From Candidatus Saccharimonadota bacterium (GTDB lineage: Bacteria; Patescibacteriota; Gracilibacteria; Absconditabacterales; Absconditicoccaceae), in assembly GCA_965231145.1 (NCBI GenBank), contig OZ246420.1, positions 510,001-542,000 of the forward strand: DNA of 32,000 nucleotides, given 5' to 3'. Shown here piece by piece: positions 7,877-30,999 of the stretch (positions are counted from its first letter, which is position 1; each line of letters opens with the position of its first letter). Both the position numbers and the translations under genes were made by a program. Under the pieces are notes generated by a model that had not been told where the DNA came from, ran no database searches, and saw only the letters and a list, made by a program, of their open reading frames with translations.

Positions 7877-9229
7877 TTACTTATTAGTAATTAATGTGTG
7901 TTCGACATGTTTCTGTATTCCCTCATCTATCATTTTCTTCAGTTCAAACTCTCATCGCGGCAATGCATAACAATTATCATATGTGGCAATAGGCGTATCG
8001 TCAAAAGACTTTTGGACGAATGTACTTTCAGAGATGTTATTTCCCTCACAGTATTTTTTGACGAGTGCATCATCCCAAAATGTCATGTCTGCTCTGTTCT
8101 CTTTTACAAAGTTCATGACTTCTTCGATATGCGAAAGTTGAGGTACTCTGACTAATCTTGCGTGAGGGAAATATTTCTGAGCAAGCTGTTCATGGATATC
8201 ATTTTCTTTTACAGCAATCCTGAGTTTCTGATTTTGCTTCAGTGTTTCAAGATCTTGCTGTGCATAAGGCGAATCAGCGCGCATATACGCATATACATGA
8301 CTTTTCATGAGCGACTGTGAGAAAAACATTTCCAGTTTTCTTTCTGTGCTTGGCCACGTAGGACTACAAAAGATATCAATATATCCAAGATCGAGTCTCT
8401 GTGTCAGTGTTCCATAGCCGCTCTGCTCTACAAACTCAAGCTTGATGTTATTATCGTCTGCTATTTTACTGATGATCTCATAGAACTTTCCACTATACGT
8501 TCCATCATCATTTCTCATGAAATAATCGAAATATGGGACATATGAACATCTCATGACTCCTCTTTCCTTAATCACTTCCCATCTTGTTTTTTGTCTTTCT
8601 GCAAAAGAAAGATACATTTCATACGGAGCTTCTAAAAGAACAAAATCTATATACATCCTTATTTTGTTGTCGAAAACTCCTGCAATATAGTCTTCAAACA
8701 CACGCCAGTTTTTATGATACACATACGTTATTTTATCAACACCAAAGAAACCAGGCGCAAACTCTAAAAATGCTATCTCTGACAGGAGGTAATGAGTAGC
8801 CTGCTTTACATCTTCATCTGTATATGGTTTTCAGGAATTCTGCAGTACTTCTTTAGAAGTTTCGTTTGCAGATTTCTCAAATTCTTGGTTTGTATCATAT
8901 AACTGTTTCACTTCATTGAAATGCTTAAGATAATTTGGATTATCCTTCACTTCATTATCCCAATCTACAATAAGAATATTTTGATCCTGAATACCAAGAT
9001 CGTTGATGACGCGTCTAGTTCTATTTTTTAAGCCGTTACCATTGAGGATAGCTTTATTCCTCGCTTTGCCTGGGTTATATCCCATAGCAAGATACGTAGA
9101 AATTGCTGGCACATCAGCGACCATGATCGCTGCCTTTCCATATCTTTTGATGCATTCTCTGAGCAAAAAAGCTACTTCCTTATCTTTGAAGTAACTGTTT
9201 CCCGGAGACATACCGATGATTGAAAGCAT
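7877..9229 (-). CDS. tRNA-dependent cyclodipeptide synthase (CDPS, NYH-type) fused to a C-terminal type-2 periplasmic-binding-protein (SBP_bac_3-like) domain (450 aa)
   Basis: Track ORFs 8831..9229 and 7952..8722 share one frame and are joined by TGA 8831-8833. TGA 7952-7954 extends the gene to TAA 7877-7879. CDPS hallmarks are IIGMSPGNSYF (compare AlbC GISAGNSYF; catalytic Ser at 9206-9208), THYLLSEIAF (Y..E) and TYVYHKNW (Y-H). The C-terminal half carries SBP_bac_3 hallmarks (CSYVPYFDY..DGTYSGKFYEII, SPTWPSTERK, YALPR[G]EFELKKMIDEGI). Confidence 0.8.
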
Positions 9230-9326
9230 TATGTCATTTTATACATTAAATATGGATTATGGACCTTAGTATAAGCAGACAAAGAAGAACTGCAATACCA
9301 CTTGCTTTCATCTGCTATTTTTCTAT

Positions 9327-9766: not shown

Positions 9767-9795
9767 AAAACTCTGCATCTCGCAGAGTTTTTTTA
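9767..9795. terminator. Bidirectional rho-independent terminator
   Basis: aactctgc-atctc-gcagagtt, flanked by an A-run and a T-run. Confidence 0.6.
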
Positions 9796-10221
9796 TTATC
9801 CTATTTTCTTCATAAGAGCCGCATATGCATAGTCTAAGAGTCAGTGTTTTTTCATGCTACAAATCTCTTCCCATGTAAACCATCCGGCATTTTGTGTTTC
9901 TTCAAGAGGTTCTGGTTCTCCCGATACCCGCTTTGTGAGGAAAAAAATTGTGAGCACCTGATGCTCTCCAAATGTACATGACATACTTCCAAGATAGTCC
10001 ATGTCGTCACTCACTACGACTCCCGTTTCTTCTTCGATTTCTCTCTTCAGTGTCTTTTCTATGATGCTTTCCGTTTGTTCATAATCGATCTTTCCACCAG
10101 GGATATTCCAGGCATCTGGATACATTCTATCGTCCGGGAGTCTTTGAATAAACAAAAATTTGTCTCATTTCTGGACCCATCCAACAATATTTGCTATGAA
10201 CATATTCTTCGCTGAAGGCAT
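9796..10221 (-). CDS. NUDIX hydrolase (141 aa)
   Basis: Nudix box GGKIDYEQTESIIEKTLKREIEEETGV. The N-terminus extends to ATG 10219-10221 through TGA (..WVQK[G]DKFLFIQR). The C-terminus extends through TGA 9841-9843 to TAA 9796-9798. Confidence 0.8.
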
Positions 10222-10293
10222 GGGATAAGTCTATGGAAATGGCCGTTGTTTTCAAGGGAGGCTACTAGCAGCCCTTATGAACTTTCATATACT

Positions 10294-10321
10294 AAAAAAG
10301 ACCCCAGCCAGGGTCCTTTTT
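10294..10321. terminator. Hairpin terminator downstream of the RT gene
   Basis: A-run, gaccc-cagcca-gggtc, T-run. Confidence 0.5.
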
Positions 10322-10389
10322 AGTGCTAGATATGAGTTCCCATACCCAGCTCCTGTATAATATATATTATTGATGTAATTACAAGTGCA

Positions 10390-12498
10390 TTAAAATTCGT
10401 ATTTTCTGCTTATTTCTCTTTCTATAACCATAGAAAGTTTCGAGATAACGATAGAAATTTCATTTTCAAAAATATCAATCTTCTGATAATTTTTATTATA
10501 TCAAATATAATGTAAGATTGCATGATTCTGTTCTTTATGATTCATTTTTGCTCTTAACTTTACAATATAGAGTAATAAATTTAAGTGTTCTCTTAATTCA
10601 GGAATTACTTTTATTATTTTTTCCTTTTCTCTACTCTTTCAACACATAATCAATCATCTTTGTCATTGGAGAACTACTGTAACATATTCATTATAAATAA
10701 GTGAATAAGCAATAGTAAGTAATCAATTAAATAAAGAATGAATATCTGCAATAAAGCTTTCATTATGTAAATAGAAAATCGGGAAAAGAGATTTAATGAC
10801 AATTAAATTATCAATTATTAGATCTAAAGAATACGCTACTGGCTTTTCTATTATTTGATCATTAGTTAAATTTTGTATTTTATTAGACAGAGACCTAAAT
10901 GCGTCTACATTATGCTGAAAAATAGTATTAAATTTTATGCCTATGATATTTTCTTTTACAGACTCTTTGCTTTGAGAAATCATATTATGTAATCATTTTA
11001 ATCTACTCAATTGTAAATAATTATCAAAAAACAACCTTTTCTTCTCGCTTAAAAATCATAATGCTATTGGATTATTGTTTTCTGTAATTGATTCAATCAA
11101 ATAATACTGCAAATCACTACGTGCACTCTGATTTTTTATTATTTTTAAATTTTTATAAAGCATAACTAAAGTATTATCCGTAATAATATATTTATATTTT
11201 CTCAAAAGGTTTATAAAATTATTCATTATACTATGATCATATTTGTTGATTAACTCCATAATCAAAGCTAAGAAATTAGTTTCAGATATAGTTATTAACG
11301 TAAGAACACTTTTTTCCTCTTCTTCTTTAGCAGAAGTTAATATATCATAAATAGATACTAAAAAATGATGGGTAACTAATAGCGAGGCACCCGCTATTGT
11401 ATAAAATCGTTTGAAGTATTGTTTTAAAAATCATTTTTCTTCTTGAATATTTTTTAATCATATGTCCATTAGATCTAAATATGCTTTAATATCAGAGACC
11501 TTATGCTTTTTTAGATTATTAATATTAATTTTGACTTTATTCTTATAATCAGACGTTTTTTTTGCATTTTCATATGATTTTTCTGCATTAGCAGTTAGCC
11601 CTCTTTCATTAAATTCTTTTTTTATCTTTGCAGCTTCTTCTTCTAAAAGAACCTTGTTATCTCCGAAAAAATAAAAATCGTCTACATAATATATCATGCT
11701 TATCTTATCATTAATAACATAGATACCATTTTTTAATTTTATATCTAGCAAGCAATCTGGATTAAATAATACTAACCAAGTAAATAAAGAAGCAATAAAA
11801 TCACAACCCAAGATAGACTGAGGAAGTCATACATTATTAAAGCCATTCACCTTAAAGAGAGCCATAGAAAGTTCATACATAAAATTATCTATTCAAAATT
11901 TCTCGTACTCTTCATAAGTTAAATATAATTTTAATATCTTATGCAATAATCCAATGAAGTGGTTATGATTTATACTATCATAATAAGATTTAATATCATA
12001 TTCCATTACTCGTGCTTTATTCTTTAATAGATTCTTTTTTATTTCCTCAAACTTAGTCCATAATCCTCGATAGGGAAGAATTTTTCAATTATTCTGAAAA
12101 TCCAATTGATGTCCATATGCAAAATACATATTTGAAATAAGCTTATTAGATTTTACATCATCATTTTTAAATATACAAGCTAATATATTGATAAGTTTCT
12201 CAATATATGTCTCAAAATAAATCACATTATAGAGGTTAGGAATTCTATATGTTCTTACATCAAGATTAATTTTAGATGAAGTTGTCTTACAAATGAAAGG
12301 TGTGTGGCAATTTTCAACAGCTAAATTAAAATGTTTTAATTCTTCATCGCTTATTCTAAGAATGTTTTCATTTAAATGAAAAAAGAACTTATCATAAAAT
12401 AAACTTCCTATTTTATTGGCTCTTGAGAAATATTCATTACTCTTAGATGTTATATATCTATTACATACTTTGAGTATTATGGATTTATCGACTGACAT
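10390..12498 (-). CDS. Stand-alone reverse transcriptase with a long helical C-terminal domain. Resembles Abi (AbiA/AbiK) or UG/DRT defence RTs (702 aa, code 25).
   Basis: Track ORFs 12085..12498, 11458..11811, 11056..11265 and 10723..10983 plus the gaps between them form one frame with 12 in-frame TGAs, ending at TAA 10390-10392. RT motifs appear in canonical order: VRTYRIPNL (motif 1), MEYDIKSYYDSINH (motif A), NV[G]LPQSILGCDFIASLF (motif B), IYYVDDFYFFG (motif C, YVDD = 11677-11688), ERGLTANAEKS (motifs D/E). Confidence 0.85.
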
Positions 12499-12564
12499 TT
12501 ATCGAATTAATGTTAAATCTATTTGATATTCTATGCATTATTCAAGTATTTTCTATGTATTATT

Positions 12565-12597
12565 AATAAAACCTGTCTCGTTAGAACAGGTTTTATC
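12565..12597 (-). terminator. Rho-independent terminator of the malic enzyme gene
   Basis: aaaacctgt-N9-acaggtttt with a T-rich tail on the minus strand. Confidence 0.55.
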
Positions 12598-12623
12598 AAT
12601 AATTGCTAATAAGCTAATGAAAT

Positions 12624-13763
12624 TTACCCCACCTTCTTCACTGCATTCGCGATCATATCAGCGATTCCTTGCTCTAACGCCGATGGGATGATGTTGTCCG
12701 GAGTTGGATTATTAACGCTTTCAGCAAGTGCGTAGGCGGCAGCTAAGAAATGTTCGTCAGTAAATTGTTTTATTCTTCCTTCAAGAGCTCATTTAAATAA
12801 ACCTGGGAAAACGAGTACATTGTTAACCTGATTTGGATAGTCACTACGTCCTGTCGCCATGATATATGCTCCTCCGGCTTGTGCTTCCTCAGGAAGAATT
12901 TCAGGGATAGGATTTGCCATAGCAAAGATGATAGGTTTATCAGTCATCTTTTGGATATCATTTCTGTCCAGGACATTTGGTTGACTCACGCCTATAAAGA
13001 CATCTGCTCAGACTATTACATCTTTAAGGCCTCACTGAGCATTGGTGATATTATATGGGATGATGGCATCTTTATAAGGATTGGAATCTGCGCGTCACTG
13101 ATAGAGAGCTCATTTGCTATCTACAAGAATAATATGTTTCACTCCTCGCGTGATAAGGAGCTTTGCAATAGCGATGGCTGCAGCTCCTGCTCCGGACATA
13201 ACTACTTTTACTGCGTCTTTTGCTTTGCCTGCAAGTTTCAGTGAGTTGATAAGCGCAGCAAGCACGACAATAGCTGTTCCATGCTGGTCGTCATGAAAGA
13301 CAGGGATATTAAGACGTTTTTTCAACTCTTCTTCTATGTAGAAGCATTGCGGAGCTTTGATATCTTCAAGATTGATCCCACCAAATGTCGGAGCAAGACT
13401 TTCTACAACAGAGATGATGTGCTCGGGATCCTGGTTTTGTAGTACGATAGGTACTGCATTTACTCAACCGAAGGTTTTGAAAAGCATCGCTTTTCATTCC
13501 ATCACCGGAAGTCCAGCCAATGCGCCGATGTTTCCGAGTCCGAGAACCGCACTTCCATCTGAAATAACTGCTATTGTATTTCCTTTCCAGGTATAGTTAT
13601 ATGCTTTTTCTGGATCAACAGCTATTTGTCTGCATGGTTCAGCCACGCCGGGAGAGTAATATGTCGAAAGATCTTCTCTTGTCTGTGGTACTATTTTACA
13701 GTGAATATCTATTTTCCCTCTGAGCTTCTCATGTCACTCGATCGATGCTTTATTGTAGTCCAT
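12624..13763 (-). CDS. NAD(P)-dependent malic enzyme (short form, 379 aa)
   Basis: Fragments 12789..12989 and 13110..13325 and their neighbours join in one frame through several TGA-Gly codons. Motifs include [28 protein letters not shown][G]VNAVPI (TGA 13464-13466), [22 protein letters not shown][G]ALY and [G]ADVFIGVS. Confidence 0.9.
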
Positions 13764-13875: not shown

Positions 13876-13981
13876 GTTAGATTGTGCCGGGAATATAAGG
13901 AATTTAGTATGTGAGTACAAGTTGAAAGTGACGAGCCAATCATTACTCTGTCTCTCAGATGTTTTATTTTAGAGGTATGAT

Positions 13982-15322
13982 ATGCAAGAAATAGCAGTCT
14001 GAACAAGTGATATATGAGGAGGAGAGCCTATTTTCTATCCTGATGAACCGCTAAAGAAAAAACTCCTCCGCAATGGATTTTGGCTCTATTTTTTCTCATT
14101 TATCGTTGCACCAACAGGATACATTATAAAAGTAATCGCGTCTCGCCAGCTTTCGGTCGAAGATATCGGTATCTTCTATTCGGTTCTTGGTATCATCGGA
14201 CTGCTTTCTACGTACAATGATCTCTGACTCACAGAGGCGCTGCAGTACTTCCTGCCGCACTATTTCATCGACAAAGACTATGTGAAGGCAAAAACGATGG
14301 TTGTCTTCACACTGATCTCGCAAATCATCAGCAGCGTACTTATCATTGCCGTGCTGCTGTTTATCGCACCGTGGCTTGCAGCGCACTATTTTCATACACC
14401 GCTTGCTCTTCCACTCCTCCAGCTCTTCTGTATCTATTTTCTCATCATCAATACATTTCAAATGATACAGTCGCTCTTCATCGCGACCCAGCAGGTGAAG
14501 CGATCCCAGGGGATTGAGTGAATCAGGATGTGGTCTATAGTCCTGCTGGTGGTAATTGGTAGTTTTATGGACATCTTTTCACTCAATAGCTTCATGCTTT
14601 ACCGGCTTGCCGGCTTGCTCATTTCTACCATAGTGGGAGCGATAGCGATGAGGAAACATTTTGGATGGCTGTTCAAATACAAAGTCAACCTCTCGAAAGA
14701 TCTCTTAAAAAAGTGGTTCGGTTATGCTATACGGGTTATCATAGGGACAAATGCGACATTATTACTCACACAGATAGATCAACAATTTGCGCTTTACTTC
14801 TTTGGTGCTGAAAGCGCAGGTTACCGAACAAATTATCTGACGCTGTTCAATAGTATCACGATCATCTGTACTCCGCTTATTGCCTATTTGTTTCCATTGC
14901 TCAATGAGCTTCATAAGAAAAACGAACAAGCAAAGATAAAGCTCTTAAATCGTATGCTCTACATAGGATTTATTTCTATCGGACTAGTGATCGGGCTTAT
15001 CGCATATTTCTGGGGACCAGAGGCAGCCGTCTTACTTTTCGGGGAAAAATTCAGATCATCAGGAGAACTTTTCCAGGTCAGTGCACCATTTCTCTGGCTC
15101 GTACCTATCATGGGTATCCAGTTTCAAAATCTTGCAAGTCATGGAAAAGTAAAACAAAGAGTCATCTTATTACTTATGGGGGTTGCAGTGAATTGTACTG
15201 TGAGCATACTTTGCATGCGTACCATGGGCATCTCAGGTATCGTCTATGGTATGGCTGCAGGACAGGCAGCGGCCATCCTTGGTTCGCTTATCATCGAAAG
15301 AAAATATCGTACTAGATCATAA
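13982..15322 (+). CDS. Wzx/RfbX-type polysaccharide (oligosaccharide-lipid) flippase (446 aa)
   Basis: ATG 13982 follows an AGAGG Shine-Dalgarno sequence. The protein is multi-TM and carries ...LLSTYNDL[G]LTEALQYFLP. Track ORFs 14282..14521 and 14528..15322 share the frame and are joined by TGA 14519-14521. Confidence 0.8.
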
Positions 15323-15327
15323 AACAT

Positions 15328-16635
15328 ATGCTGAAATATATCATGACATGAGATAAGACGCAAGGTCTGAGATGGGAAAACCGATCGCTCTTTTTGCGTA
15401 CTGAAACAAGTCGTCTTGAGAGGAACTCTACGGCAAGTGTGCTCATGATCTGTTATAACCATACGGAGCAGTTCTTCAGGTTGCTTGATAAGATCGACAA
15501 AGAGTCATGACGCGATCAGTTTACTATCACTATCGTACAAAACTCTGATAAGGAAGAAGCCTTACGTATATTTGAACAAAAGATTGCTTCATATACCAAC
15601 ATAACTGTCCTCTACCCGGTACACAATCTCGGCTCTGCATGAGGTTATGCACTCTGACAAGAATACTTGCTACATCATGGCTATGAACATCTTATCATGG
15701 TAGAAGACGATATAGAACTTCTTGCAGATGATACGATCACTGCTATGATACAGACAGCCAAAAGGGATGAAAAACATGTTGTTTTCATCAACCATCCGAT
15801 CAATGCTGGTGGTGACCATTCTCGATATGTACAGCTTGCATGCTATCCTCTTTCGCTTATTCGTCATGCTGGGATCATAGATCCAAGATATTTCTTCAGA
15901 GCAGAAGATCTTGAGCGGGCAAAAAGACTCGAAAAACATATTGCGGATAGTCATTATCATAAGGTCATTATAGAAAAAGACTATTATCATCCTTACATTA
16001 AGGCTATGAATAATAGTGGTTCATGGATCTATTTTTCTATCAGAAACCAGTTATGGAGTTTTTGCTCTCATCATGTGAGCTATGTACAGCTGATCAGAGC
16101 GATCTTTTTTTACCTCGCATTTGGTTTGTTTGTGTTCCTCAGAACAAGGAAAAAAGAAATTATGCTATGCGTTGTGCGGGCGCTGTATGATGGCATACGC
16201 TGATATAGATCGTTTGGATATAATGTAAAAATTATTGAAAAATGTATGCACTACAAAAAGCTTTTTCTCTCCGATCTATGATGGAGCATAGAACAGATAA
16301 ATACGCTTCCTAGCTATATTAATACTCACCATCTTCTTGCTCGTACGACTCTCTCTGTACAGGACAGAGAGGTGCTTTGACGCTACAGATGAGATCTTCG
16401 TGTTAGCGGATGATTTCAGCCTGTTCGAGGATGGTATATGGTCGCACTCCAGCGTCTCTTTATCATAGAACATCTCAGACTCGATAAAGATATGTGCTCC
16501 GGAAAGCTGCTTCGTCAGAGCTTTGCTTCAAGCGTACTGAACTTATGATTGTTTTTGCCAGCAGCTTTGTTATGATGAATAGCAATTATCGTCTACACAG
16601 TGCTGTTTTTACCGACTAGCTATCTCAGGAAATAA
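15328..16635 (+). CDS. GT2-family glycosyltransferase with a C-terminal membrane-associated extension (435 aa; the start may be internal, near 15439-15445)
   Basis: VLMICYNHTEQ..., NLGSA[G]GYAL[G]Q and MVEDD (DxD) motifs. The frame continues through TGA 16201-16203 and further TGAs to TAA 16633-16635. Confidence 0.7.
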
Positions 16636-17429
16636 TGAGAAACATCAAGCAGTTTCTGACGCCACAAACGCTCTCTTATCTGTTTTATTTGCCGAGAGTT
16701 TTTTTGGTACTGAAAAATCCATTATGATTTTTGAAATCATATATTAGCGGAACTCGCAGTATAGAAAATATAGAAATGCGCCATGGACTTGTCTATGAGA
16801 TCAGCAACTTTGATGACCTTGGTGTATTCTATGAAATATTTATCAAGAAAGAATACGGCGCTATCCCCAAAGGGAAGACTACTATCATTGATATAGGCGC
16901 AAACAATGGTCTTTTCATGCTCTACTGTAAATCACAAAATCCTGAAAGCACGATCCATTGCTATGAACCAGTGCCACAGTGTGCATCACATATCCAGCAT
17001 ATCGTACATCGTAACAAACTCCAGCATGTACATATCCATGAGGCTGCTGTTTCGGATAAAGTATGACTCCATCGTTTATATCTTGGTAGTCAAACTGTTG
17101 CGGCGTCGCTCTATGAGGATATCGCATCATGACATGAAAGCATAGATATCAAGACAACAACACTCGAAGCGATATTCCATGACCAGAGCATCGCAAGCGT
17201 TGATTTCCTTAAGGTAGACTGCGAAGGTGGAGAGTATGACATTTTTTATTCTACCAGTGCAGAGACACTTCAGCGCTGTAAGTACATGGCAATCGAATAT
17301 CATGACATCGATGAAACAAAAAATGGAAAGGAGCTCTACAAACATATAAAAAAACTTCTTCCACAAAGAAAAGTTATCTATCATCATCATCCTGCCCATC
17401 CACATAACGGCTTTATCACGGTAAAATAA
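16635..17429 (+). CDS. FkbM-family methyltransferase (264 aa)
   Basis: IIDIGANNGLFMLY...CYEPVP...FLKVDCEGGEYDIF. The start ATG overlaps the upstream stop (ATAATGA). There are 3 in-frame TGA-Gly codons. Confidence 0.8.
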
Positions 17430-17438
17430 TACCTTTCT

Positions 17439-18374
17439 ATGACAGCAATTTCTTTAGTTATCCCAATGTACAATGAAGAAAGGTATATTTGAAGATGCCT
17501 CGATTCGCTGATTGCACAAACAAGAAAAGATTTTGAAGTGATTCTCATTGACGATGGAAGCTCCGATAAGAGCATTGCTATAGCATCTGCGTATAAAGAA
17601 AAAATGGATCTTACTATCCTGGAGCAACAGCATGGATGACCAGGGAAAGCAAGAAACTGGTGAGCGACACTAGCGAAGTGATCTATACTTGTCTTTGTTG
17701 ATGCAGATATGGCGTTCGATGAAGCATATCTTGAAGAGCTTGTGAAGCCTATTGAATCATGAGAAGAAAAATGAACTGCTCATGGTCGAGAGTATATTGC
17801 AAATGAAGAACATCCTATCGCCAGAGCATATGGTATCATAAGACTTGCATATAACGAGAAAGAACCAAGGGGTGGCGTGTTCAGAGCGATCAAGAAAGAT
17901 ATTTTTCTCAGCAATGCGTGATACGACAATAGTCGCTACGCATTTGAAGATGATATGGCGCAAAAGATTGGTCAGGCTCTGTATGTTCCTACCGCTATTT
18001 GCTACCACAATAACCCTGAAGACTTTCACGAGATCTTTGCACACGAAGTCTGGATTGGAGAGTCTCTTATCGCTAAATGAATGTTAGTCGAGTATCTCAA
18101 AAAATATAGCCTCTATTTGATCACATTTGTCTTTGGTGTTATTGTGGTGAGTTTATGGGCTACAGCTATAGGTATTTCGATAGGAACGCTTTTGTTAGGT
18201 ATTGTATGTATGCTTGTTTTCCTTATAGTGCTTGTCAGCATAAAAAGAGCTCTCCTCGAGAGATATGTTTCGCATCTTCTCTATGTTCCACTTGTGCTTG
18301 TCACGAGATGAGCCGGATATATACGATGAATGGGACGTTATTTACTTACTCATAGATCGCACAAATGAAATTAA
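17439..18374 (+). CDS. GT2-family glycosyltransferase with C-terminal TM helices (311 aa)
   Basis: ISLVIPMYNEERYI[G]RCLDSL, ILIDDGSSDKS, QQHG[G]PGKARNW[G]A (TGA 17637-17639), FVDADM. It includes track ORF 18081..18311 in the same frame. Confidence 0.85.
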
Positions 18375-18901
18375 ATATTGGAGCAGGAACAGACATTCAT
18401 CCATGATATATCAATATGGATATTGTACAGCTGCCAGGGATTGATGTTATACACAACCTTGAAGAGGTACCATATCCGTTTGAGGACAATACATTTGATG
18501 AAATCTTTTGTTCTCATGTCCTGGAACATGTCTTCGATCTGCAAAAGACGATGAGAGAACTCGTGAGGATTTGTAAAAATGGAGCACTCATAAAAGTAAA
18601 GGTGCCGTATGTTTCAAATCCAAATGGCTGGGCTGATCCGACACATCATAGGCTCTTTAGTCTCAATAGTTTCTATTATTTCTCAAAGGAATGCTTCTAC
18701 AACGCGAACGATAAAGGTATGGATATCCAGGTTCTTAAAAAAAGGATTCATTTCTTTTCAAATGCGCAATACCTTAAATCTGACATTATTAATATCCTTC
18801 CTGATTTCTTCGTCAATCTGATCCCCAAAGTCTATGAAAGATTTTTCGCGTTCTGGTTTCCTTCAACAGAAATTCACTTTCTTCTCAAAGTAAACAAATA
18901 A
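18365..18901 (+). CDS. Class I SAM-dependent methyltransferase (178 aa)
   Basis: MKLNIGAGTDIHP[G]YINMDIV...PFEDNTFDEIFCSHVLEHV. It overlaps the upstream gene by 10 nt. Confidence 0.75.
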
Positions 18902-18931
18902 TCTCATGATTTATACGGTGTTGGTAATCAT

Positions 18932-19966
18932 ATGAAAATAGTAAATCCATCTCATCCACTCTACCTCAAGGCTTGTAAAAGAGAGTCTCAGTTTTGGAGT
19001 GGCGATACGGCATTGGAGTATGATCATATTCCCCAGAGAGTACAAGAGTATGAAAACATGAAAAGAACTGGGAATAAAGAAACTACTGATCTTTCATTTC
19101 TGCAGTCTCTTGGTACATTCCCACGTGGTCTTTCTATTGGTTCAGGATGAGGTAAATATGAGCTCAACCTTTTACAAAAAGGTATCGTAGAACATTTCGT
19201 ATTCATCGACATCAGCGAAAGTGCCCTCGTTATGTTAAAGCAAAATGCTGAAAAGCTTTGAGTTTCTGACAAAATAGAAACTCGTGTACAGGATTTCAAT
19301 TTTCTCTCGCTTCCTGAAAACAGCTATGATTTTGTCTGCTGCCAGAACATGCTGCATCATATTATCAACTTGGAAGAAGCCATAGATAGTATCAATCGTT
19401 CTCTTACGTCTACGGGTATCTTTGTCATCGATGAAGCTATCAGTGAAAACAAGATGTATCGATCGGATGCAAAGATGTCTTTTCTAGAAACGATACAGTC
19501 GCTACTCAGGGAGAAAGGAATTTCTACGAAGCCATATATTAGAACAAATCCCAAAGTTCTGACCAATACATGTCCTTTTGAGTGCGTAAGAAGCGCAGAT
19601 CTCTATGGTATTATTGATCACTATTTTCATGATACGGCGATCAAGCACATAGCATATAGTCCCCTCTTTTCTTTTTGGAATGGGCTCACCGACGATCTGA
19701 GTGACATGTATTTTGACATCCTTGAGGAGTTTGATACATTTGCCTCATCGCATCATTATGTACATCCAAATAGACTGTTCGGTATCTACAAAAAATCACA
19801 TATTCCACTGCTGCCTTCTACACCGTGGACCGAAAAAGAGATACAGGAATATATTGGCGTGACCGCGATAAATGAACGTAAACTCATGGAATTTTCACAA
19901 AAACTCCATAAAAAGTTTCCTGGAGTCTATAATTTTTTCAAACGTCTCTACTTTAAAATCAGATAA
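18932..19966 (+). CDS. Class I SAM-dependent methyltransferase (344 aa)
   Basis: Track ORFs 18932..19150 and 19349..19966 share one frame and are joined by TGAs. Motif I is GLSIGSG[G]GKYE. Motif CCQNMLHHI is also present. Confidence 0.75.
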
Positions 19967-19968
19967 CC

Positions 19969-20757
19969 ATGCACCCAGAGGTTTCCATCATCATCCTCAA
20001 CTACAACACCCCAGAACTAACGACTGCCTGCGTGCAGTCGGTCATTGCTCATACACACGATATTTCTTATGAGATTGTACTGATAGACAACGCTTCAAAG
20101 TCTGAAAGCAAAATATATTTTGATACACATCTTTCGAATATCCCTGAGTTACATATCCACTATAGTACTACCAATCGTGGCTTTGGAGGTGGAAATAACC
20201 TTGGATACAACCATAGCAAAGGTGAGTATCTTTTCTTCCTCAATAGCGATACGATCATCTATGAAAATTCTATAAAGATCCTTGCTGATGAGTATAAAAA
20301 GCATGAAGAACAAGTAAAAACAGGCTTTCTCGCACCAAGACTCTACTATGATCCTGCAAAGACTACCAAGCAAATATTTGGCACGAAAGTACCAACGTTT
20401 TGGGACGTTATGGTCTATAATATTCCAAAATTAAAAAAGATCTGGAAGAAAAAATATGATAGATTTCGTTATGCAGACCGAGATAGAGAAACTGATAAGG
20501 AAATAGGCAATGCATGAGGGCCTGTGTTTTTCTGTTCAAGAGCTTGCTTTGAGGATATCGGTAGATTTGATGAAAGATTTTTTCTCTATATGGAAGAGTT
20601 TGATACGGCTATGAGATTATATAAAAAATGATACCATAACTTTTATACAGCCAAGACTAGCATCGTTCATCTTGAAGACCAGTCTCCAAAAATAAAGCGA
20701 AAAAAGCTCAAGATCTCTTTAGAGAGTATGCTGAAGTTCTTCTGGAAGTATTTATAA
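19969..20757 (+). CDS. GT2-family glycosyltransferase (262 aa)
   Basis: VSIIILNYNTPELT, VLIDNASKS, TNRGFGGGNNLG, FLNSDT, then through TGA 20515-20517: [G]GPVFFCSRACFEDIGRFDERFFLYMEEFDTAMRLYKK[G]Y. Stop is TAA 20755-20757. Confidence 0.85.
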
Positions 20758-20761
20758 AAAA

Positions 20762-20791
20762 AAGCTTATTATCATAAGGGATAATAAGCTT
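20762..20791. terminator. 11-bp stem hairpin, probably a bidirectional terminator
   Basis: aagcttattat-N8-ataataagctt. An A8 run precedes it, which gives a strong T-run on the minus strand. The plus-strand tail is a weaker TTTCTTG. Confidence 0.5.
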
Positions 20792-20857
20792 TCTTGAGAA
20801 TGTGGGCTAATGTTAAGCGCCTACTGCAACTCACTCATCATAGTCGATTTCTTCTCT

Positions 20858-20927
20858 GTACTTCCATAAATCAATTCAGAAGCTCTGTTTCATAGTCTGG
20901 CGCTGCTCTCAAGCAGATTTTTTTATA
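20858..20927 (+). repeat. 3'-region repeat element, copy 1 (GTACTTCC ... CATAGTCTGGCG, then a short hairpin and T7 run)
   Basis: GTACTTCC at 20858-20865 and CATAGTCTGGCG at 20891-20902, followed by a 4-bp hairpin ctgc/gcag and a T7 run. The same two blocks with similar spacing occur on the opposite strand at 21961-22002. Confidence 0.35.
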
Positions 20928-20991
20928 CTAATAAATAATACTCTCATGACAATATTTCATAAATAAAATAGCTAAATATTATCAAAATATT

Positions 20992-21849
20992 TTAAAGCGA
21001 TGCAGTATCCTTAATTTTCAGCATGCGATTGGAAATAGCAAGATATGCTTTGAGGATTCTTTGTGATTTCGTTGCCATTATCATCCTCCAGACAATATTA
21101 GAAAGTGTTTTGACTCCTAATATCATAATTAAAGTGGCAACAGAATATCCTTCCTTACGATAAATAATATATTGCCGTCTTGCATTTGTAAAAATACTTC
21201 TACTCTTAAAGTTTTTGACCTCATGAATTCTGTAAATAAATACAGGTTGAGGTATCATGCGAATAGTGTACTTTCTCGTAAAACTTAAATGATAGTCCCA
21301 ATCAGCAAAAAGCCCAACTTTTTCATCAAAAAGAATGTCTTTATCAAAACGAAATAATGTTCATCAAAATCCAAGCGCATTATTATTCTTTAAGAAATCT
21401 TGATGAGATAGGTTATATGGATCCTTATATTTTATAGGCTTTTCTGAGATAAATTCGCCACGTGCATTGATATAATATCTCATTCCGCCTACTGCTCCTA
21501 TATCTTGTGAAGCATGTAGCTCACTATACAGTGCATACAAGCTATTATTATCATAAAATTTATCGTCATCCGAAAGGAAAATAATATATTTTCAGCGAGC
21601 TTTCTGTAAGCATTTATTTCGATTTGGCACCATTCATATATTTCTTTCGTTTTTATGGTATTTTATGTACGGATATCTTTTTATATAATCTTCTAACACT
21701 TCAGATATACTCATATCTTTGCTGTTATCTGTGATAATAATTTCGATATTTTTTTTATCAATACCTTGTTGCCTCAGGCAACTTTCTAAGCATTCAATAA
21801 TATACTCTTTACGATCGCACGTGGGGATAAGTATAGAAATTTCGTACAT
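20992..21849 (-). CDS. GT2-family glycosyltransferase (285 aa)
   Basis: ISILIPTCDRKEYI, IIITDNSKD, ERNI[G]MVPNRNKCLQKAR[G]KYIIFLSDDD. Track ORFs 21634..21849 and 20992..21258 share the frame. Stop is TAA 20992-20994. Confidence 0.85.
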
Positions 21850-21933
21850 CTATTCTTCGTTAAGGATAAATATATCATTAACTTGAAGAATGCACCGAAA
21901 CTACGCGCCGCAAGCGGACGTTTTTTTATAAAC

Positions 21934-22075
21934 AAAAAAGGCGACTAACTATCCTCAAGTCGCCAGACTATGTCACCCAGATGCCCCCAATGAAGGAAGT
22001 ACTAAGAAGAGAATGAGCTAATCGCCTTCTCTTGCATTAAGGGTATAAATATATCTGATTATAACATAGTCTGGC
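21934..22075 (-). repeat. 3'-region repeat element, copy 2, with a 12-bp perfect inverted repeat and a terminator
   Basis: The minus strand reads ...GTACTTCC (22002-21995)...CATAGTCTGGCG (21972-21961), then hairpin ggcgac/gtcgcc (21940-21964) and a T6 run. gccagactatgt (21962-21973) pairs with acatagtctggc (22064-22075). Confidence 0.4.
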
Positions 22076-22144
22076 ATATTTAGTATACAAAAAAGAACTA
22101 CCCGTGCAAGGTAATTCTTTTGCTGTATATCAGATAGCTAGCGC

Positions 22145-23002
22145 CTATTCTTTCCAAAAGTGACAGTCATGATCATCCACCCACTTGTGCTTGTTGAAGC
22201 CATATGAAGCCATAAGTTCCATGGTTTTATGTTTAGTCTCCGTACGAGGCATGATCTCAATAATCATATCTGTGTGCTTGATGTTCGATAAGAGCTCTTT
22301 CATCCCCTTCAGTACTTCGTATTCAAAGCCTTCTACATCCATGATGATCAGGTCAGGCTGTATTCATAATTCCAAGCTATCATATCTTTTGACTGGAACC
22401 TCTATATGTTTTTGGTTTTCAGTCTTACGATTTGAGTTATGAGCAATCATTTTAGAAGAGGCGTCGTTGTCACTCACATAGTCGAATAATGTCGTGCCAT
22501 CTTGTTCACCAAGACAGAAATTGTACAAATGCATCTTATCCTCTACTCCAGAAAGGATGCTATTGATCTTGAGTGTCTGAAATGTGTTTGGACTTGGCTC
22601 AAAACAGTATGATGTATATCAGTATTTTTTACTTAGTTCTATAGCAAATCTTCCTATGTGTGAGCCAATATTGAGAAATACTTTTTCTGACTTATGCGAG
22701 GTCTTCTTCACATTATGCTGTATGACTTCCTGTATTTCAGGTTCATAGTCTGGGATAAGCACTGTCCAGTGGTTGACCGTAGAACCAAGAAATGTTCCAA
22801 ATGGAGTATGAAAAATAAATGCTTTATGAAAAAGCTTATGTGTTTTTGAGACAAACTTCCAGAGAAGTCAGCCAGCAAGAGCATTACATGTATAGAGTAA
22901 TGCAAGTACAAGATACCTCCGCATAAAATCTATGCTTCCTGAGATCCTTATATATCGTGGTATTGAAGCTACTTTACTGAGTAATCTTTGTAATTTCTTC
23001 AT
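22145..23002 (-). CDS. FkbM-family methyltransferase (285 aa)
   Basis: ATG 23000-23002. VFLNIGSHIGRFAIELSKKY[G]YTSYCFEPSP and PDLIIMDVEGFEYEVL. There are 3 in-frame TGA-Gly codons. Stop is TAG 22145-22147. Confidence 0.8.
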
Positions 23003-23006
23003 GATC

Positions 23007-24059
23007 CTACAAATAAGTTAAAGTGGTAGTATAGACCTCATTGACCGAGATGGCATCCATCTCTGTTCATGTACACTGGGCAAAACTTCCATATGCGTCA
23101 TAACATTCAAATTTCATTTTCCAAATCCACTCCCCTGCATATTTTTCTGCTCTTGTATGATGCGGATACAGTCTCTGGGGATCAGTTGGTCATGCCATGA
23201 CAACAACCGGTACGCCTGCACATGCACTGAAATGCATAAAGCCGCTTTCCTGACAAACCATCACATCCATATAACTCATAGCATCTATGCTCTCCCTCAG
23301 CGAGAATTTTCCTGTCATATCATGATATCACGCATGGATCATATCCAATTTTCTATCGGTCGGTCAACCAAATGCGAACACATCGTATCCCTGATCAAGG
23401 AAATGCTTGATAAGAGTCTTCCATTTTTCCAATGGCCATCGTCTACAGTCACCGTTGCCATGGATGCTCTTTGAGATTTGATTTCCCCCACCCAGAGCGA
23501 TACCAATGCACTTTTTTTTCCACTGTGGACGCAGATGAGCAAAGAGTTCGTCTACTTTTTTACTTTGCATAGAAGCATACTCATATGATTGGTCATCGAG
23601 ATCTGGTTTTACTCCTATAAACTGACCAAGCTGGAGATAGTGCTCTACCTCTCTTCCCTGCTTGTCCCAGTAAAGTTTATGTGTCAGAAACTTTCCATCT
23701 TTCCCAAGCCTATCAAGACCTACTCTTTTCTGAAATCATGCGAGCTTTGCGATCAATCCAAAGATCCAGTGTCTATCGAGGATAACTATAGTTTTATAGA
23801 AGTAGTGTTGTCTTAGTTCACGAAGCTTCCGGATAAGCGATATCATACCGAGGATATTACGGATGGTCTTTTTTTCAAAAATCTTTTCGGCAAAGGTAAA
23901 CTGTTCGTCTATAGTAGCATTTCATTGTAATATAGCTGCTGATCTTTTTCCCACAAGATAGCCTACTTTTGCTCATGACATTTTTGTCTGCCTCAAAAGC
24001 GGCGTCGTCATGAGCACATCACCGATAGCACCTATTTTAAAGAAAAGAATCGACTGCAT
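23007..24059 (-). CDS. GT9-family glycosyltransferase (ADP-heptose-dependent heptosyltransferase-like, 350 aa)
   Basis: ILFFKIGAIGDVLMTTPLL, IALGGGNQ...RRWPLEKWKTLI, VCQESGFMHFSACAGVPVVVMA[G]PTDP. There are 7 in-frame TGA-Gly codons. It contains track ORF 23364..23570 in frame. Confidence 0.8.
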
Positions 24060-24063
24060 CTTA

Positions 24064-25260
24064 TTACTTCTGCTTATGAGTTAAGAAATCTTTATAGATA
24101 GAAAGAACTGTTTGTATACAATCATCCCATCTAAATACTTTAGGATGAATATGCTCAGGCTCTACAGTACCATCGAAATATCCTCTGATCGTATGTGCAA
24201 TCTGCTTTGAATTTCCTGGTTCAACAAACATAATCTCACCCGATACCACTTCCGGGATTGATGCAACATTTGTCGTAATAAGCGTCTTATGCATGGCACA
24301 GACTTCTGCGATAGCGAAGCCAAAACCCTCTGCCTGTGAAGGAAGCACGACAAGGTCTGCTGTCTGTATCCACTGTTTGAGGGTGTTCCATGGCGCTCCA
24401 GGTATATGAGTAATATGTGATTTATAATGCGTTAACATACCATCATATTGCTGTTCATCTATAGTAGAACGGATAAGCCCTGCTTTTTTTTTCGTATCCT
24501 GTGGTACGATCAATACAAACTGGATGTGCTTATTATTATCTATTACGCTTGGAATAGCCTGCAATACATCATCGAGTCACTTTGCAACTCATGGTCTTCC
24601 AAAGAACAAGACTATCTTCTTTTCACCAATATTATAATGTTCTCTCAGTGTATGTATTTCCTGATTTCATTTTGAATTCTGCTCTTTGAATTCTGAGTTA
24701 TTTCGGAAATCGTAATCAATAGCATTGTAGACTGTCATGAGTTTCTTGTCTGGCAGGCCATATACTATCCTCAGATTATTTTTCGTATAGTTTGAGACAC
24801 ATAGATACTTATCAAATGTGAAGCATTGAAAAATAATATCTTCAAGCAGACGAGAGAAGAATCCCATAGCACCGATAAAGCGATACCAAAGCTTTCCATA
24901 GATCTCATGCACATGCAGCACTGTAGGTATTTTCGTCAGTCTTCTTACGATACCTGCCGGGATCGCAGCCATAAATGTTGTCGCATGAATAAGATCAATA
25001 TGCTTATGATAACACAGCCAGTTTGCTTTTCTTAACCCATACCACATAAAGTCAAATCTTCCGTGTCCAACTCTATAAATTGTGCATCTTTCCGCATACT
25101 CTTCTTGTGCAGGTAACGCTTGATCATAACGCGAAGTGACGATAGACACTTCGTGTCACTCTGCGAGTACTCATTCGATGATTTTCGTAAAAAGCGTCTC
25201 TACTCAACCAATATGAGGAGCAAAGTACTCAAGCACGAAGAGAATATGTTTTTTATGCAT
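24064..25260 (-). CDS. GT4-family (group 1) glycosyltransferase (398 aa)
   Basis: ILFVLEYFAPHI[G][G... region, then LVVLPSQAEGFGFAIAEVCAMHKTLITTNVASIPEVV (EX7E-type motif). Track ORFs 24064..24564 and 24667..25149 are in one frame. Confidence 0.85.
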
Positions 25261-25984
25261 GACGCTTTTTTGACTGAAAGCGATAAATGAAAAGTGTTTT
25301 TATAGCAAGCCACCCATCGATAAACTTTATTTTCTTTCACTGAGTATGCTTTCTTGGATAGTAATGAATAGGTATCTCTCCATAAGAGTATCATCTTCTA
25401 AGCAATAACATAGTAGCTGCGGGTTCCCATGCAAAGTCATTTTCTTTTGGAGAGAGAAGGAGATTTCTGCACTTCTTATGATACATCTTATAGCAGGTCG
25501 GTTCATCAGTGACAAGTCTCAGGGCGAGAAGAGATGTAAGAAATGATACAGTAAGCCCACCGAAAAGAAATCAAAATGTAGAGTATTTCATACCAAACTT
25601 GCTGTAACCGCGAGTTCTGGATCCATAACAGATATCTAGATTCTTTTTTTCCATCTTCTGAAGCATGGGAATCAGATCGTGGGGCTCATATTCAAGATCA
25701 GAGTCCTGTATCACATAGACGTCACCTGTCGCTTTTGCTATGCCCTGCTTTATACTATATCCTTTTCATCCATTTGGATGTGAGATATAATGAGCTTTTC
25801 CTTCATATTCACTGAGAAATGTTTGTATAATATTTTCACTTTCATCTTTGCTTCCATCGTTAACAATGACAAGTTCCTTGTCATATCACAGATGGAAAAA
25901 ACTGAGCCTTGCGACTTTTGCAAGCAGCTCTCCCACATAACGCTGTTCATTGTATACAGGTATGATGATAGAGATTAATTTCAT
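25253..25984 (-). CDS. GT2 polyprenol-phosphate glycosyltransferase (DPM1/GtrB/CsbB-like, 243 aa)
   Basis: ISIIIPVYNEQRYV, VIVNDGSKDES, HPNG[G]KGYSIKQG, YVIQDSDLEY. TGA codons break it into pieces under 60 aa in the standard-code track. Stop is TAA 25253-25255. Confidence 0.85.
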
Positions 25985-28842: not shown

Positions 28843-28865
28843 GAGCATAATATATGATAAAAATT

Positions 28866-29789: not shown

Positions 29790-29807
29790 TAGTACACTTC
29801 ACCTTAA

Positions 29808-30884: not shown

Positions 30885-30900
30885 CTGTTTTTTTACAAAT

Positions 30901-30931
30901 AAAAAAATCTACCAGTAATTGGAGATTTTTT
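30901..30931. terminator. Hairpin terminator downstream of xseA
   Basis: A7 run, stem atct(a)cc/ggagat with one bulge, T6 run. Confidence 0.4.
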
Positions 30932-30999
30932 AGTCATTTAGCCATAAATTGCAATGAAAAGCTTATGAACAGCCTAGGCTGATACGCTACACTTTTTAG

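What the first reader, a model, noticed from the sequence alone, without database searches (positions are those of the whole stretch)
10294..12597. AT-rich island encoding a stand-alone, fully UGA-recoded reverse transcriptase with an uncharacterised C-terminal domain of about 360 aa
Seen in sequence:
- With TGA = Gly, the minus strand holds one 2,109-nt ORF (10390..12498, 702 aa). The standard-code track shatters it into four fragments plus gaps because of 12 in-frame TGAs.
- The N-terminal ~340 aa carry RT motifs 1, A, B, C and D/E in canonical order (VRTYRIPNL; YDIKSYYDSINH; [G]LPQS; YVDD at 11677-11688; GLTANAEKS).
- The remaining ~360 aa are Leu/Ile/Asn/Lys-rich and look helical.
- I see no maturase X/thumb signature, no endonuclease domain, no Cas1, and no group II intron RNA domains.
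- Only about 70 nt separate the gene from the flanking terminators on either side, so a retron-style msr/msd has no obvious room.
- Sampled lines inside the island are roughly 20-25% GC, against roughly 35-47% in the neighbouring NUDIX and malic-enzyme genes (by eye).
- The island sits exactly between the terminators of those two housekeeping genes.

Established knowledge: a single-gene RT with a helical or HEPN C-terminal domain is the architecture of the abortive-infection RTs AbiA/AbiK/Abi-P2 and of several UG/DRT defence RTs.

Inference: this is a horizontally inserted anti-phage RT module native to code-25 hosts, since more than half of its Gly codons are TGA. I cannot place it in a described class by eye, so it may be a new clade.
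Basis: partly seen in the sequence, partly recalled or inferred. Interest (0 to 1): 0.9.

Follow-up and report, generated by a model that had tools for sequence, protein, structure and literature searches.

The report
AbiA-like defence reverse transcriptase, UGA-recoded
This is a real, intact single-gene reverse transcriptase built like the phage-defence polymerase AbiA; it belongs to a small, so far unnamed family found here only in bacteria that read UGA as glycine, and in other genomes it often sits inside or beside restriction-modification gene clusters.

Summary
Window 10390..12498 (-) is one 702-codon ORF with 12 in-frame TGA. TGA reads as Gly: across family genes it aligns with GGN 40 times and with TGG never. 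GC is 0.24 against about 0.38 in the flanks.

The protein is a reverse transcriptase with invariant catalytic Asp residues. It has no thumb, X or endonuclease domain. A 12-helix domain follows the RT, then an all-helical C-terminal domain with an invariant R-x4-H-K-E motif.

An AlphaFold model (pLDDT 86, pTM 0.89) matches Lactococcus AbiA best and over full length, then DRT4/UG15, AbiK, DRT6 and Abi-P2. No PADLOC UG/Abi model scores above about 60 bits. I therefore call it a new group of class 1 UG/Abi RTs with AbiA-like architecture.

A HMMER scan of 1.84 billion representatives found 18 full-length homologs at 28-35% identity, all UGA-recoded. Four of six informative loci lie in or next to defence genes, three of them Type I R-M. 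Three related SR1 genomes lack the gene at this site.

The likely mechanism is protein-primed, template-independent ssDNA synthesis, as in AbiA; this is inferred. The HEPN assignment rests on motif and topology only.

The parts
10390..12498 (-). RT gene, 702 aa, 12 TGA=Gly codons, TAA stop at 10390-10392
   Evidence: Translation with table 25. 18 colinear full-length homologs. AF2 model pLDDT 86.2, pTM 0.89.
11575..12498 (-). N-terminal extension plus RT fingers and palm (about aa 1-308). Includes invariant Tyr23 in a low-confidence loop, motif A D168, motif B P226/Q227, motif C Y271-V-D273-D274 (11677-11688), and motifs D/E GLTANAEKS.
   Evidence: RVT_1 matches aa 116-308 in the window protein (E=5e-6) and 17 of 19 family members (best E=1.9e-18). 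Invariant columns. Secondary structure.
11524..11574 (-). Linker loop between RT and helical domain (about aa 309-325) carrying Tyr309 and Tyr318. Tyr318 is conserved in about half the family.
   Evidence: Alignment columns and model. The priming Tyr298/303 of AbiA lie in the equivalent loop (PMC11077055).
10966..11523 (-). Helical (alpha-solenoid-like) domain of 12 helices, about aa 326-511, occupying the place of a thumb
   Evidence: DSSP helices 326-508. Full-length Foldseek matches to AbiA, DRT4, AbiK and Abi-P2. PADLOC AbiA, UG19 and Drt5 alignments extend into this region.
10393..10965 (-). C-terminal all-helical domain (about aa 512-702) with invariant F527, K569, F582, D585, S588, R649, H654 and K655, and near-invariant N591 and E656. 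The R-x4-H motif RAKMNH is at 10537-10554.
   Evidence: Alignments A1 and A2. Domain model pLDDT 84.3. No significant fold or profile match.
12559..12603 (-). Hairpin (18-nt arms, 94% complementary) downstream of the malic-enzyme gene; upstream border of the AT-rich island
   Evidence: the 125-nt spacer folds at -26.2 kcal/mol, z = -5.6.
12499..12558 (-). AT-rich leader with sigma-70-like hexamers (12566-12537 and 12555-12528) that could drive the RT on its own
   Evidence: Consensus scan only; the count is not above the shuffle expectation.
10293..10324 (.). Bidirectional terminator-like hairpin (stem 10300-10315 flanked by an A-run and a T-run) downstream of the RT

Best explanation
The gene encodes a single-protein anti-phage system of the class 1 UG/Abi reverse-transcriptase lineage. 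Its three-domain build is that of Lactococcus AbiA: an RT-like fingers/palm without a thumb, a 12-helix solenoid, and a C-terminal helical HEPN-like domain.

Proposed mechanism, by analogy with AbiA, AbiK, Abi-P2 and DRT4 (inferred, not shown):
[quoted passage not shown] Invariant Tyr23 in the flexible N-terminal loop is the best candidate, AbiK-like. Tyr318 in the RT-helical linker is the AbiA-like alternative.
- It then polymerises long single-stranded DNA without a template or an ncRNA, which blocks phage development.
- The C-terminal domain most likely mediates dimerisation and nucleic-acid binding, as in AbiA. Its strictly invariant R-x4-H-K-E motif leaves open an RNase effector role.

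The gene is an accessory, AT-rich insertion in a variable region of an Absconditabacteria (SR1) chromosome. Its family circulates only among UGA=Gly (code 25) bacteria.
For: Shown:
- Intact ORF under code 25.
- RT domain with invariant D168 and D273/D274.
- Confident model. Its best PDB matches are AbiA 8oz7 (E=1.2e-10, TM 0.55 on the target, about full length), UG15/DRT4, AbiK, DRT6 and Abi-P2, ahead of group II, retron and DGR RTs.
- PADLOC hits fall mainly on class 1 UG/Abi models. UG19 and AbiA alignments run far past the RT core.
- The 12-helix domain replaces the thumb, and two long helices end in R-x4-H. This mirrors AbiA's 12-helix domain, its helices 510-540 and 565-585, and its motif at 581-588.
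- Homolog contexts: hsdR-RT-hsdS-hsdM; RT next to HsdM/HsdS, SMODS, SLATT and SduA_C; RT-hsdS with a small RT, SocA and hsdM; PIN_8, KAP NTPase and a Schlafen-like helicase upstream.
- Gaps of 3-30 nt to neighbouring genes in L004, L010 and L008 leave no room for an adjacent ncRNA. No Rfam family matches.
- The gene is absent from the same site in three related genomes.
- It is AT-richer than its flanks in every locus.

From the literature: Abi RTs perform protein-primed, untemplated ssDNA synthesis, and AbiA needs its HEPN domain for activity (PMC11077055; DRT4 in PMC12783706).
Against: - No experiment exists on any member.
- Sequence similarity to AbiA itself is negligible: the AbiA HMM hits at best at 1e-7, for one member, and not over the HEPN part.
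- By sequence profile, the RT core is as close to group II and CRISPR-associated RTs as to Abi-P2.
- The C-terminal domain alone has no significant structural match (best E=2.3; HEPN toxins at E=6-10).
- It also has no Pfam, PADLOC or PDB profile match.
- Two of six contexts, including this window, show only housekeeping neighbours.
- Other members of the lineage (DRT2, DRT3, DRT9, DRT10) use ncRNA templates. An RNA encoded elsewhere or inside the ORF is not excluded.
Confidence: 0.62

Rival explanations
1. It is an ncRNA-templated defence RT, like DRT2, DRT9 or DRT10. It would reverse-transcribe a dedicated structured RNA into repetitive or gene-encoding cDNA rather than making random ssDNA.
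For: Several UG/Abi systems work this way (abstracts listed; PMC9226505). DRT9 structures are also among the fold matches (E=2.6e-6). The 150-nt spacer downstream of the window gene folds into three stable hairpins (z = -3.8). L016 leaves about 450 nt between the upstream BipA gene and the RT.
Against: In L004, L010 and L008 the RT lies 3-30 nt from the upstream gene, and 6-20 nt from the downstream gene in L004 and L010, so no conserved adjacent ncRNA is possible. There is no Rfam hit. The window's upstream spacer is just the terminator of the preceding gene. The best structural matches are the template-independent Abi/DRT4 enzymes.
Confidence: 0.12
2. It is a two-activity effector whose C-terminal HEPN domain is a true RNase. 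It is functionally tied to Type I restriction-modification in a PrrC-like guard arrangement: the R-M complex keeps it silent, and it fires when a phage anti-restriction factor attacks that complex.
For: R649, H654 and K655 are invariant, and E656 is near-invariant, across members that share about 30% identity. The RT is embedded between hsdR and hsdS in one locus and directly precedes hsdS in another, with 6-20 nt gaps; a third lies about 1 kb from hsdM. HEPN nucleases embedded in Type I R-M loci are established knowledge (PrrC/RloC; from my own knowledge, not tested here).
Against: The window copy and L016 have no R-M genes nearby, so the RT can stand alone. Type I R-M loci are general hot spots for defence genes. 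The HEPN fold is not established. In AbiA no RNase activity was detected, and R/H substitutions did not affect defence.
Confidence: 0.13
3. It is not a defence gene. It is a domesticated or selfish retroelement RT, such as a group II intron-like or retron-like remnant, or a housekeeping polymerase of CPR bacteria.
For: The sequence-profile matches to group II maturase RT (1.9e-9) and Cas6-RT-Cas1 (7.9e-7) are numerically better than the match to Abi-P2. NCBIfam's only hit is the group II RT/maturase model. The window context is housekeeping.
Against: The group II score is 25.9 bits against a cutoff of 300. There is no X/thumb or endonuclease domain, no intron RNA and no msr/msd. The distribution is patchy, and the gene is absent at this site in relatives. 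There are no flanking repeats. Full-length fold matches favour Abi polymerases.
Confidence: 0.05

Closest known systems
AbiA (Lactococcus lactis; PDB 8oz7; 'AbiA-large' of class 1 UG/Abi RTs)
   Same: Single-gene system. Same domain order: thumb-less RT, a 12-helix domain, then a C-terminal all-helical domain whose R-x(n)-H motif sits at the end of the second long helix. It is the best full-length structural match (E=1.2e-10, TM 0.48/0.55). Both have a linker loop with tyrosines between the RT and the helical domain.
   Different: Essentially no sequence similarity (11-12% identity in the structural alignment). The AbiA HMM reaches only 1e-7 in one member, and not over the HEPN part. The motif is R-x4-H-K-E here against R-x6-H in AbiA. 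A beta-hairpin is inserted between the two long C-terminal helices. The protein is about 75-100 aa longer, with an N-terminal extension carrying an invariant Tyr. It is confined to UGA=Gly hosts.
UG19-large, UG21, UG20, UG22 and UG23 (uncharacterised class 1 UG/Abi groups, Mestre et al. 2022)
   Same: These include the best-scoring defence HMMs (UG21 up to 6e-17). UG19 alignments span the RT, the helical domain and part of the C-terminal domain (for example aa 144-683 on profile positions 125-544 of 562). UG19-large carries a fused distant-HEPN domain, and UG22 has a neighbouring HEPN gene.
   Different: Scores of 30-60 bits are far below those between family members (124-223 bits between single sequences). 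No one group is consistently the best hit.
AbiK, Abi-P2 and DRT4 (UG15)
   Same: Thumb-less RT plus a helical domain. They are single-gene defence systems, and strong fold matches (E about 1e-8 to 1e-5). The invariant Tyr in an N-terminal fingers loop parallels the priming Tyr44 of AbiK.
   Different: They lack the extra C-terminal domain, and they form trimers or hexamers rather than HEPN-mediated dimers (PMC11077055).

Membership tests
Reverse transcriptase superfamily (Pfam RVT_1) | Fingers/palm fold with motif A Asp and motif C YxDD | tested here: met
   The window protein scores 26.8 bits, just under the gathering score of 29.6. 17 of 19 family members match, best E=1.9e-18. D168 and D273/D274 are invariant. 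All significant fold matches are RTs.
Class 1 UG/Abi RTs (Mestre 2022) | RT fused to a C-terminal alpha-repeat or helical domain in place of a thumb | tested here: met
   The model has 12 helices at aa 326-508 directly after motif E. The top fold matches are AbiA, DRT4, AbiK, DRT6 and Abi-P2 over 500-750 alignment columns.
Class 1 UG/Abi RTs (Mestre 2022) | Phylogenetic placement of the RT domain inside the UG/Abi clade | not testable with these tools
   No reference UG/Abi sequences were available for a tree. As a proxy, the PADLOC hits are dominated by UG/Abi models. However, the generic CRISPR-associated RT and group II profiles score similarly.
Any single defined UG/Abi group (UG1-UG39, AbiA, AbiK, Abi-P2 HMMs of PADLOC v2) | Strong full-length match to that group's HMM | tested here: not met
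   The best score for any member is about 60 bits (UG21, 6e-17). The window protein reaches at most 31 bits. The best-hit model differs from member to member.
AbiA | Three-domain architecture: RT, helical domain, C-terminal HEPN | tested here: inconclusive
   The domain order and the best structural match agree. The third domain cannot be shown to be HEPN.
AbiA | Sequence membership (AbiA HMM) | tested here: not met
   AbiA models hit 1 of 19 members at 7e-5. One Gly-corrected member hits at 1.1e-7, over profile positions 14-475 only.
AbiA | Protein-primed, template-independent ssDNA synthesis | not testable with these tools
   This needs biochemistry. Candidate priming residues are Tyr23 (invariant, in a low-pLDDT loop) and Tyr318.
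HEPN superfamily | R-x4-6-H motif | tested here: met
   R649-x4-H654 is invariant in 19 of 19 sequences and is followed by K655 (invariant) and E656 (at least 90%).
HEPN superfamily | HEPN helical-bundle fold or profile similarity | tested here: inconclusive
   The domain model is all-helical, with the motif at the end of a long helix. Foldseek's best match is E=2.3, and HEPN toxins 7ae6/7ae8/7ae9 appear only at E=6-10. There are no Pfam, PADLOC or PDB profile hits apart from HEPN_Apea at 0.046 in 1 of 19 members.
Group II intron RT/maturase | X/thumb (maturase) domain, intron RNA domains, TIGR04416 score at or above cutoff | tested here: not met
   25.9 bits against a cutoff of 300. There is no intron RNA in Rfam scans. 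A helical domain of the Abi type replaces the thumb.
Retron | Adjacent msr/msd ncRNA plus an effector | tested here: not met
   No Rfam retron RNA was found. Gaps of 3-30 nt in three family loci leave no room. Retron RT fold matches are weaker, at E of 5e-5 or worse.

The most novel reading that the evidence does not exclude
This is a defence RT family genetically locked into UGA=Gly bacteria. Up to 22 sense TGAs, including the conserved Gly positions of RT motif B, make it inexpressible in standard-code hosts. In this reading it acts as a dual polymerase and HEPN-RNase effector wired to Type I restriction-modification as a PrrC-like guard, firing when phage anti-restriction proteins disable the R-M complex. 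That would be a new mode of RT-based immunity and a concrete case of a genetic code partitioning the defence gene pool.
Probability: 0.1. Interest if true: 0.8.

Novelty: new variant of a known kind. Interest (0 to 1): 0.55.

Why it matters
- It adds an unmodelled group to the UG/Abi defence reverse transcriptases. Standard tools miss it because code-11 gene calling shatters it and code-4 calling writes Trp for Gly.
- It gives a second, very distant example of the AbiA architecture (RT, solenoid, HEPN-like domain). Here the R-x4-H motif is strictly conserved, which could help settle what that domain does.
- It suggests that ultra-small, host-dependent SR1/Gracilibacteria maintain their own defence genes, which are locked in by their genetic code.
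- The recurrent embedding in Type I R-M operons is a testable lead on regulation.

Tried and rejected
- The search for homologous proteins with the Gly-translated protein and with the family alignment returned nothing useful. The 5-mer word index fails on this AT-rich family, although members are in the collection.
I used the code-4 (Trp) version, P0001, which was found by exact look-up.
- Scans for close relatives in GTDB genomes and IMG/VR found none. The full alignment was too diverse for pattern scans.
- PDB sequence search with the single protein gave only a 46-aa motif C-E match to a group II RT.
- The C-terminal domain alone gave nothing significant against the PDB by fold, PDB by profile, Pfam or PADLOC.
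- BFVD returned only generic RT and RdRp domains.
- I looked for target-site duplications or terminal repeats around the island and found only chance-level short repeats.
- Rfam gave no match at gathering thresholds and only two spurious snoRNA hits at E about 0.3-0.4.
- I searched for the sequencing runs in the literature to name the organism and found no paper. Strigamonas (1.9 Mb) is not the source.
- I considered a functional RT-NUDIX pair, as reported for UG23. I rejected it as a conserved feature because no other family locus has a NUDIX neighbour.
Full report
**1. The observation**

The minus strand of window 10390..12498 translates under table 25 into one 702-aa protein ending in TAA. 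Under table 11 it breaks at 12 in-frame TGAs. The gene has 12 TGA, 11 GGN and 2 TGG codons. At the local base composition, a 702-codon frame free of TAA/TAG has a probability of about 4e-25.

GC is 0.24-0.25 over 10501-12500, against 0.36-0.44 on both sides. GC3 is 0.19, against a mean of 0.36 for 22 other ORFs in the window. Those ORFs use TGA for 18% of their Gly codons, against 52% here.

One correction concerns the gene geometry. Malic enzyme (12624..13763), the RT and the NUDIX gene (9796..10221; Pfam NUDIX 1e-16) are all on the minus strand. The hairpin at 10300-10315 therefore follows the RT and precedes the NUDIX gene. The NUDIX terminator is at 9767-9791.

**2. The genetic code**

I obtained DNA for ten homologous loci, which represent nine distinct RT genes. 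Each RT gene has 9-22 in-frame TGAs.

In an alignment of seven of these genes, codons aligned opposite a TGA encode GGN-Gly 40 times and TGG-Trp never. The rest are mostly Asn, Ser, Lys, Asp and Glu. GGN-Gly makes up only about 1.5% of codons in these genes.

The conserved Gly positions of RT motif B (GxPQG) are written "WxPQW" in code-4 gene calls of most members. Gly content under those calls is an implausible 0-2.8%, with Trp at 1.7-4.5%. TGA therefore means Gly in the whole family.

**3. The family**

The word-indexed protein search found nothing. Exact look-up showed that the code-4 version (P0001) is in the collection. Its 90% cluster contains only P0001 and a 137-aa code-11 fragment from a 1,107,293-bp NCBI contig. 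Three Logan assemblies (ERR4405439-41) are 100% identical to the window.

A full HMMER scan of 1.84 billion 50%-identity representatives gave only 23 hits at E of 1e-3 or better:
- 18 are full-length colinear homologs. Seventeen are 684-753 aa and one is N-terminally truncated at 611 aa. They share 28-35% identity, with E-values from 6e-61 to 5e-11.
- four are fragments of the query itself (100% identical).
- one is a 238-aa partial match, probably also a fragment.

Public names are only [quoted passage not shown] and "Reverse transcriptase domain-containing protein". One cluster, from human oral metagenomes, has 20 member sequences, and the listed ones were seen on dozens of contigs.

No relative was found in IMG/VR or in the GTDB species genomes by close-relative scan. 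I found no paper describing such an RT in SR1 or Gracilibacteria.

**4. What the protein is**

- **Pfam:** RVT_1 matches aa 116-308. It falls just below the gathering score in the window protein (26.8 against 29.6 bits), but 17 of 19 members match, with E-values down to 1.9e-18.
- **Invariant residues:** D168 (motif A), Q227 (motif B) and D273/D274 (motif C) in the RT. In the C-terminal third: F527, K569, F582, D585, S588, R649, H654 and K655, with N591 and E656 at 90% or more.
- **Full-length model:** an AlphaFold2 model built on the family alignment is confident (pLDDT 86.2, pTM 0.89). It shows fingers and palm, then a loop at about aa 305-325, then 12 helices (326-508). The C-terminal helical domain (518-700) contains a small beta-hairpin.
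- **Fold search against the PDB:** AbiA 8oz7 ranks first (E=1.2e-10; 733-755 alignment columns; TM 0.48 on the query and 0.55 on the target). UG15/DRT4, AbiK, DRT6, DRT9 and Abi-P2 follow. Group II, retron and DGR RTs are weaker and match only the RT core.
- **PADLOC:** the hits are spread over many UG/Abi models, mainly class 1 (UG21, UG22, UG20, UG23, UG19, UG33, UG34, Drt8, AbiA, AbiP2, Drt4-6). None exceeds about 60 bits. UG19 and AbiA alignments extend far beyond the RT core.
- **Other profiles:** the NCBIfam group II RT/maturase model scores 25.9 bits against a cutoff of 300.

Mestre et al. 2022 define class 1 UG/Abi RTs by a fused alpha-repeat domain. They note HEPN fused to AbiA-large, a HEPN gene next to UG22, and a distant HEPN-like fusion in UG19-large. 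I therefore place the protein in class 1 UG/Abi with AbiA-like architecture, but in none of the modelled groups.

**5. The C-terminal domain**

The invariant R-x4-H (RAKMNH, aa 649-654; consensus RAxLNHKE) is the HEPN signature.

Its position also fits AbiA. It lies at the end of the second of two long helices (580-602 and 633-652), followed by about 48 residues. In AbiA the helices are 510-540 and 565-585, the motif RNSNPVSH is at 581-588, and the protein ends at about 628.

A separate model of aa 505-702 is confident (pLDDT 84.3), but statistical support for HEPN is lacking:
- Foldseek finds nothing significant. The best match is E=2.3, and HEPN-MNT toxins 7ae6/7ae8/7ae9 appear only at E=6-10.
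- The domain profile hits no PDB sequence.
- Pfam gives HEPN_Apea at 0.046 in 1 of 19 members.
- PADLOC gives nothing.

HEPN is therefore probable, but it rests on motif and topology only.

**6. Genomic context**

*This locus.* The closest malic-enzyme relatives carry SR1, Absconditabacterales or Absconditicoccaceae names. Three of them have long contigs, with 75%, 72% and 71% identity.
- All three keep the polysaccharide cluster plus malic enzyme on one side.
- Each has different genes on the other side, and none has the RT or the NUDIX gene there.
- In the closest relative, the same distal anchors (HD_4, 23S_rRNA_IVP, ClpB) reappear a few kb on.

The RT thus sits in a variable region and is accessory. 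I found no flanking repeats that would mark an insertion mechanism.

*Other family loci.* There are six distinct loci with at least one informative flank:
- **L004/L015 (ACD_71):** hsdR-RT-hsdS-hsdM, with 30-nt and 6-nt gaps.
- **L010:** unknown gene, RT, hsdS, then a second small RT, an HTH-SocA/Panacea gene and hsdM.
- **L008 (human oral, 103 kb):** BipA-RT, then HsdM, HsdS, SMODS, SLATT_4 and SduA_C within 8 kb.
- **L017:** PIN_8, KAP NTPase and a Schlafen-like helicase upstream.
- **L016 and the window:** only housekeeping neighbours.

L005, a short contig, has a RhuM-family gene downstream. In every locus the RT is more AT-rich than its flanks.

**7. RNA partner**

- No Rfam family matches, and the window holds no tRNA.
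- The 125-nt upstream spacer is essentially the terminator hairpin of the malic-enzyme gene.
- The 150-nt downstream spacer is GC-normal and forms three hairpins (z = -3.8). The middle one is the bidirectional terminator.
- In L004, L010 and L008 the RT is 3-30 nt from its upstream neighbour. In L004 and L010 it is also 6-20 nt from its downstream neighbour.

An adjacent ncRNA gene therefore cannot be a conserved component.

**8. Mechanism (inferred)**

By analogy with AbiA, AbiK, Abi-P2 and DRT4, I propose protein-primed, template-independent synthesis of ssDNA triggered by infection. These enzymes lack a thumb, carry the helical domain, and make random ssDNA from a protein tyrosine primer (and the DRT4 abstract).

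There are two candidate priming residues:
- **Tyr23:** invariant in all 18 sequences that have an N-terminus. It lies in a loop with pLDDT below 50 between two N-terminal helices, like Tyr44 of AbiK.
- **Tyr318:** in the RT-helical linker, the position of AbiA Tyr298/303, but conserved in only about half the family.

The C-terminal domain probably dimerises the enzyme, as in AbiA, where deleting the HEPN domain abolishes activity. Its invariant R-x4-H-K-E leaves an RNase role open. In AbiA no RNase activity was detected, and mutating the motif did not affect defence.

**9. Verdict**

The gene is a new, code-25-restricted group of class 1 UG/Abi defence RTs with AbiA-like architecture. It is not categorically new.

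The points of interest are:
- the strict confinement to UGA=Gly lineages, with TGA even at catalytic-motif glycines;
- the strictly conserved HEPN-type motif;
- the repeated embedding in Type I R-M operons.

The defence function, the untemplated synthesis and the HEPN identity all remain to be tested.

Noticed in passing
window 7877-9238 (-): A 450-aa fusion of a cyclodipeptide synthase (CDPS, PF16715) with a periplasmic solute-binding domain (SBP_bac_3). The same fusion occurs in a related SR1 contig (L012 12945-14297).
   Followed up: no
window 10240-10389 (-): The RT-NUDIX spacer is GC-normal and folds into three stable hairpins (-47.9 kcal/mol, z = -3.8). Only the middle one looks like a terminator, and no Rfam family matches.
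   Followed up: partly
window 9796-10221 (-): The NUDIX gene directly downstream of the RT is also missing from this site in three related genomes. NUDIX partners are reported for UG23 RTs, but no other member of this RT family has a NUDIX neighbour, and its GC is host-like.
   Followed up: partly
L010 6011-7859: A second, small RT (327 aa, RVT_1 8e-28) followed by an HTH plus SocA/Panacea gene. It lies between hsdS and hsdM in the same defence cluster as the family RT.
   Followed up: no
L008 11296-18184: A human-oral code-25 contig carries HsdM, HsdS, SMODS, SLATT_4 and a SduA_C (Shedu-like) gene in a row. This is a defence island in an ultra-small bacterium.
   Followed up: no
L017 2436-9127: An AT-rich (GC 0.22-0.23) run of PIN_8, an unknown 437-aa gene and a KAP-family NTPase, followed by a Schlafen-like (DUF2075) helicase at GC 0.35. 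All lie upstream of the family RT.
   Followed up: no
window 13973-32000: A long cell-envelope polysaccharide cluster (Polysacc_synt, glycosyltransferases, methyltransferases). Its part next to the malic enzyme is syntenic in all three SR1 relatives examined. The gene products beyond about 22.5 kb were judged by eye only, not by profile search.
   Followed up: partly
databases: The word-indexed protein search misses this whole family although its members are in the collection. Members are stored either shattered (code 11) or with Trp for Gly (code 4), so routine defence-system annotation will overlook them.
   Followed up: yes
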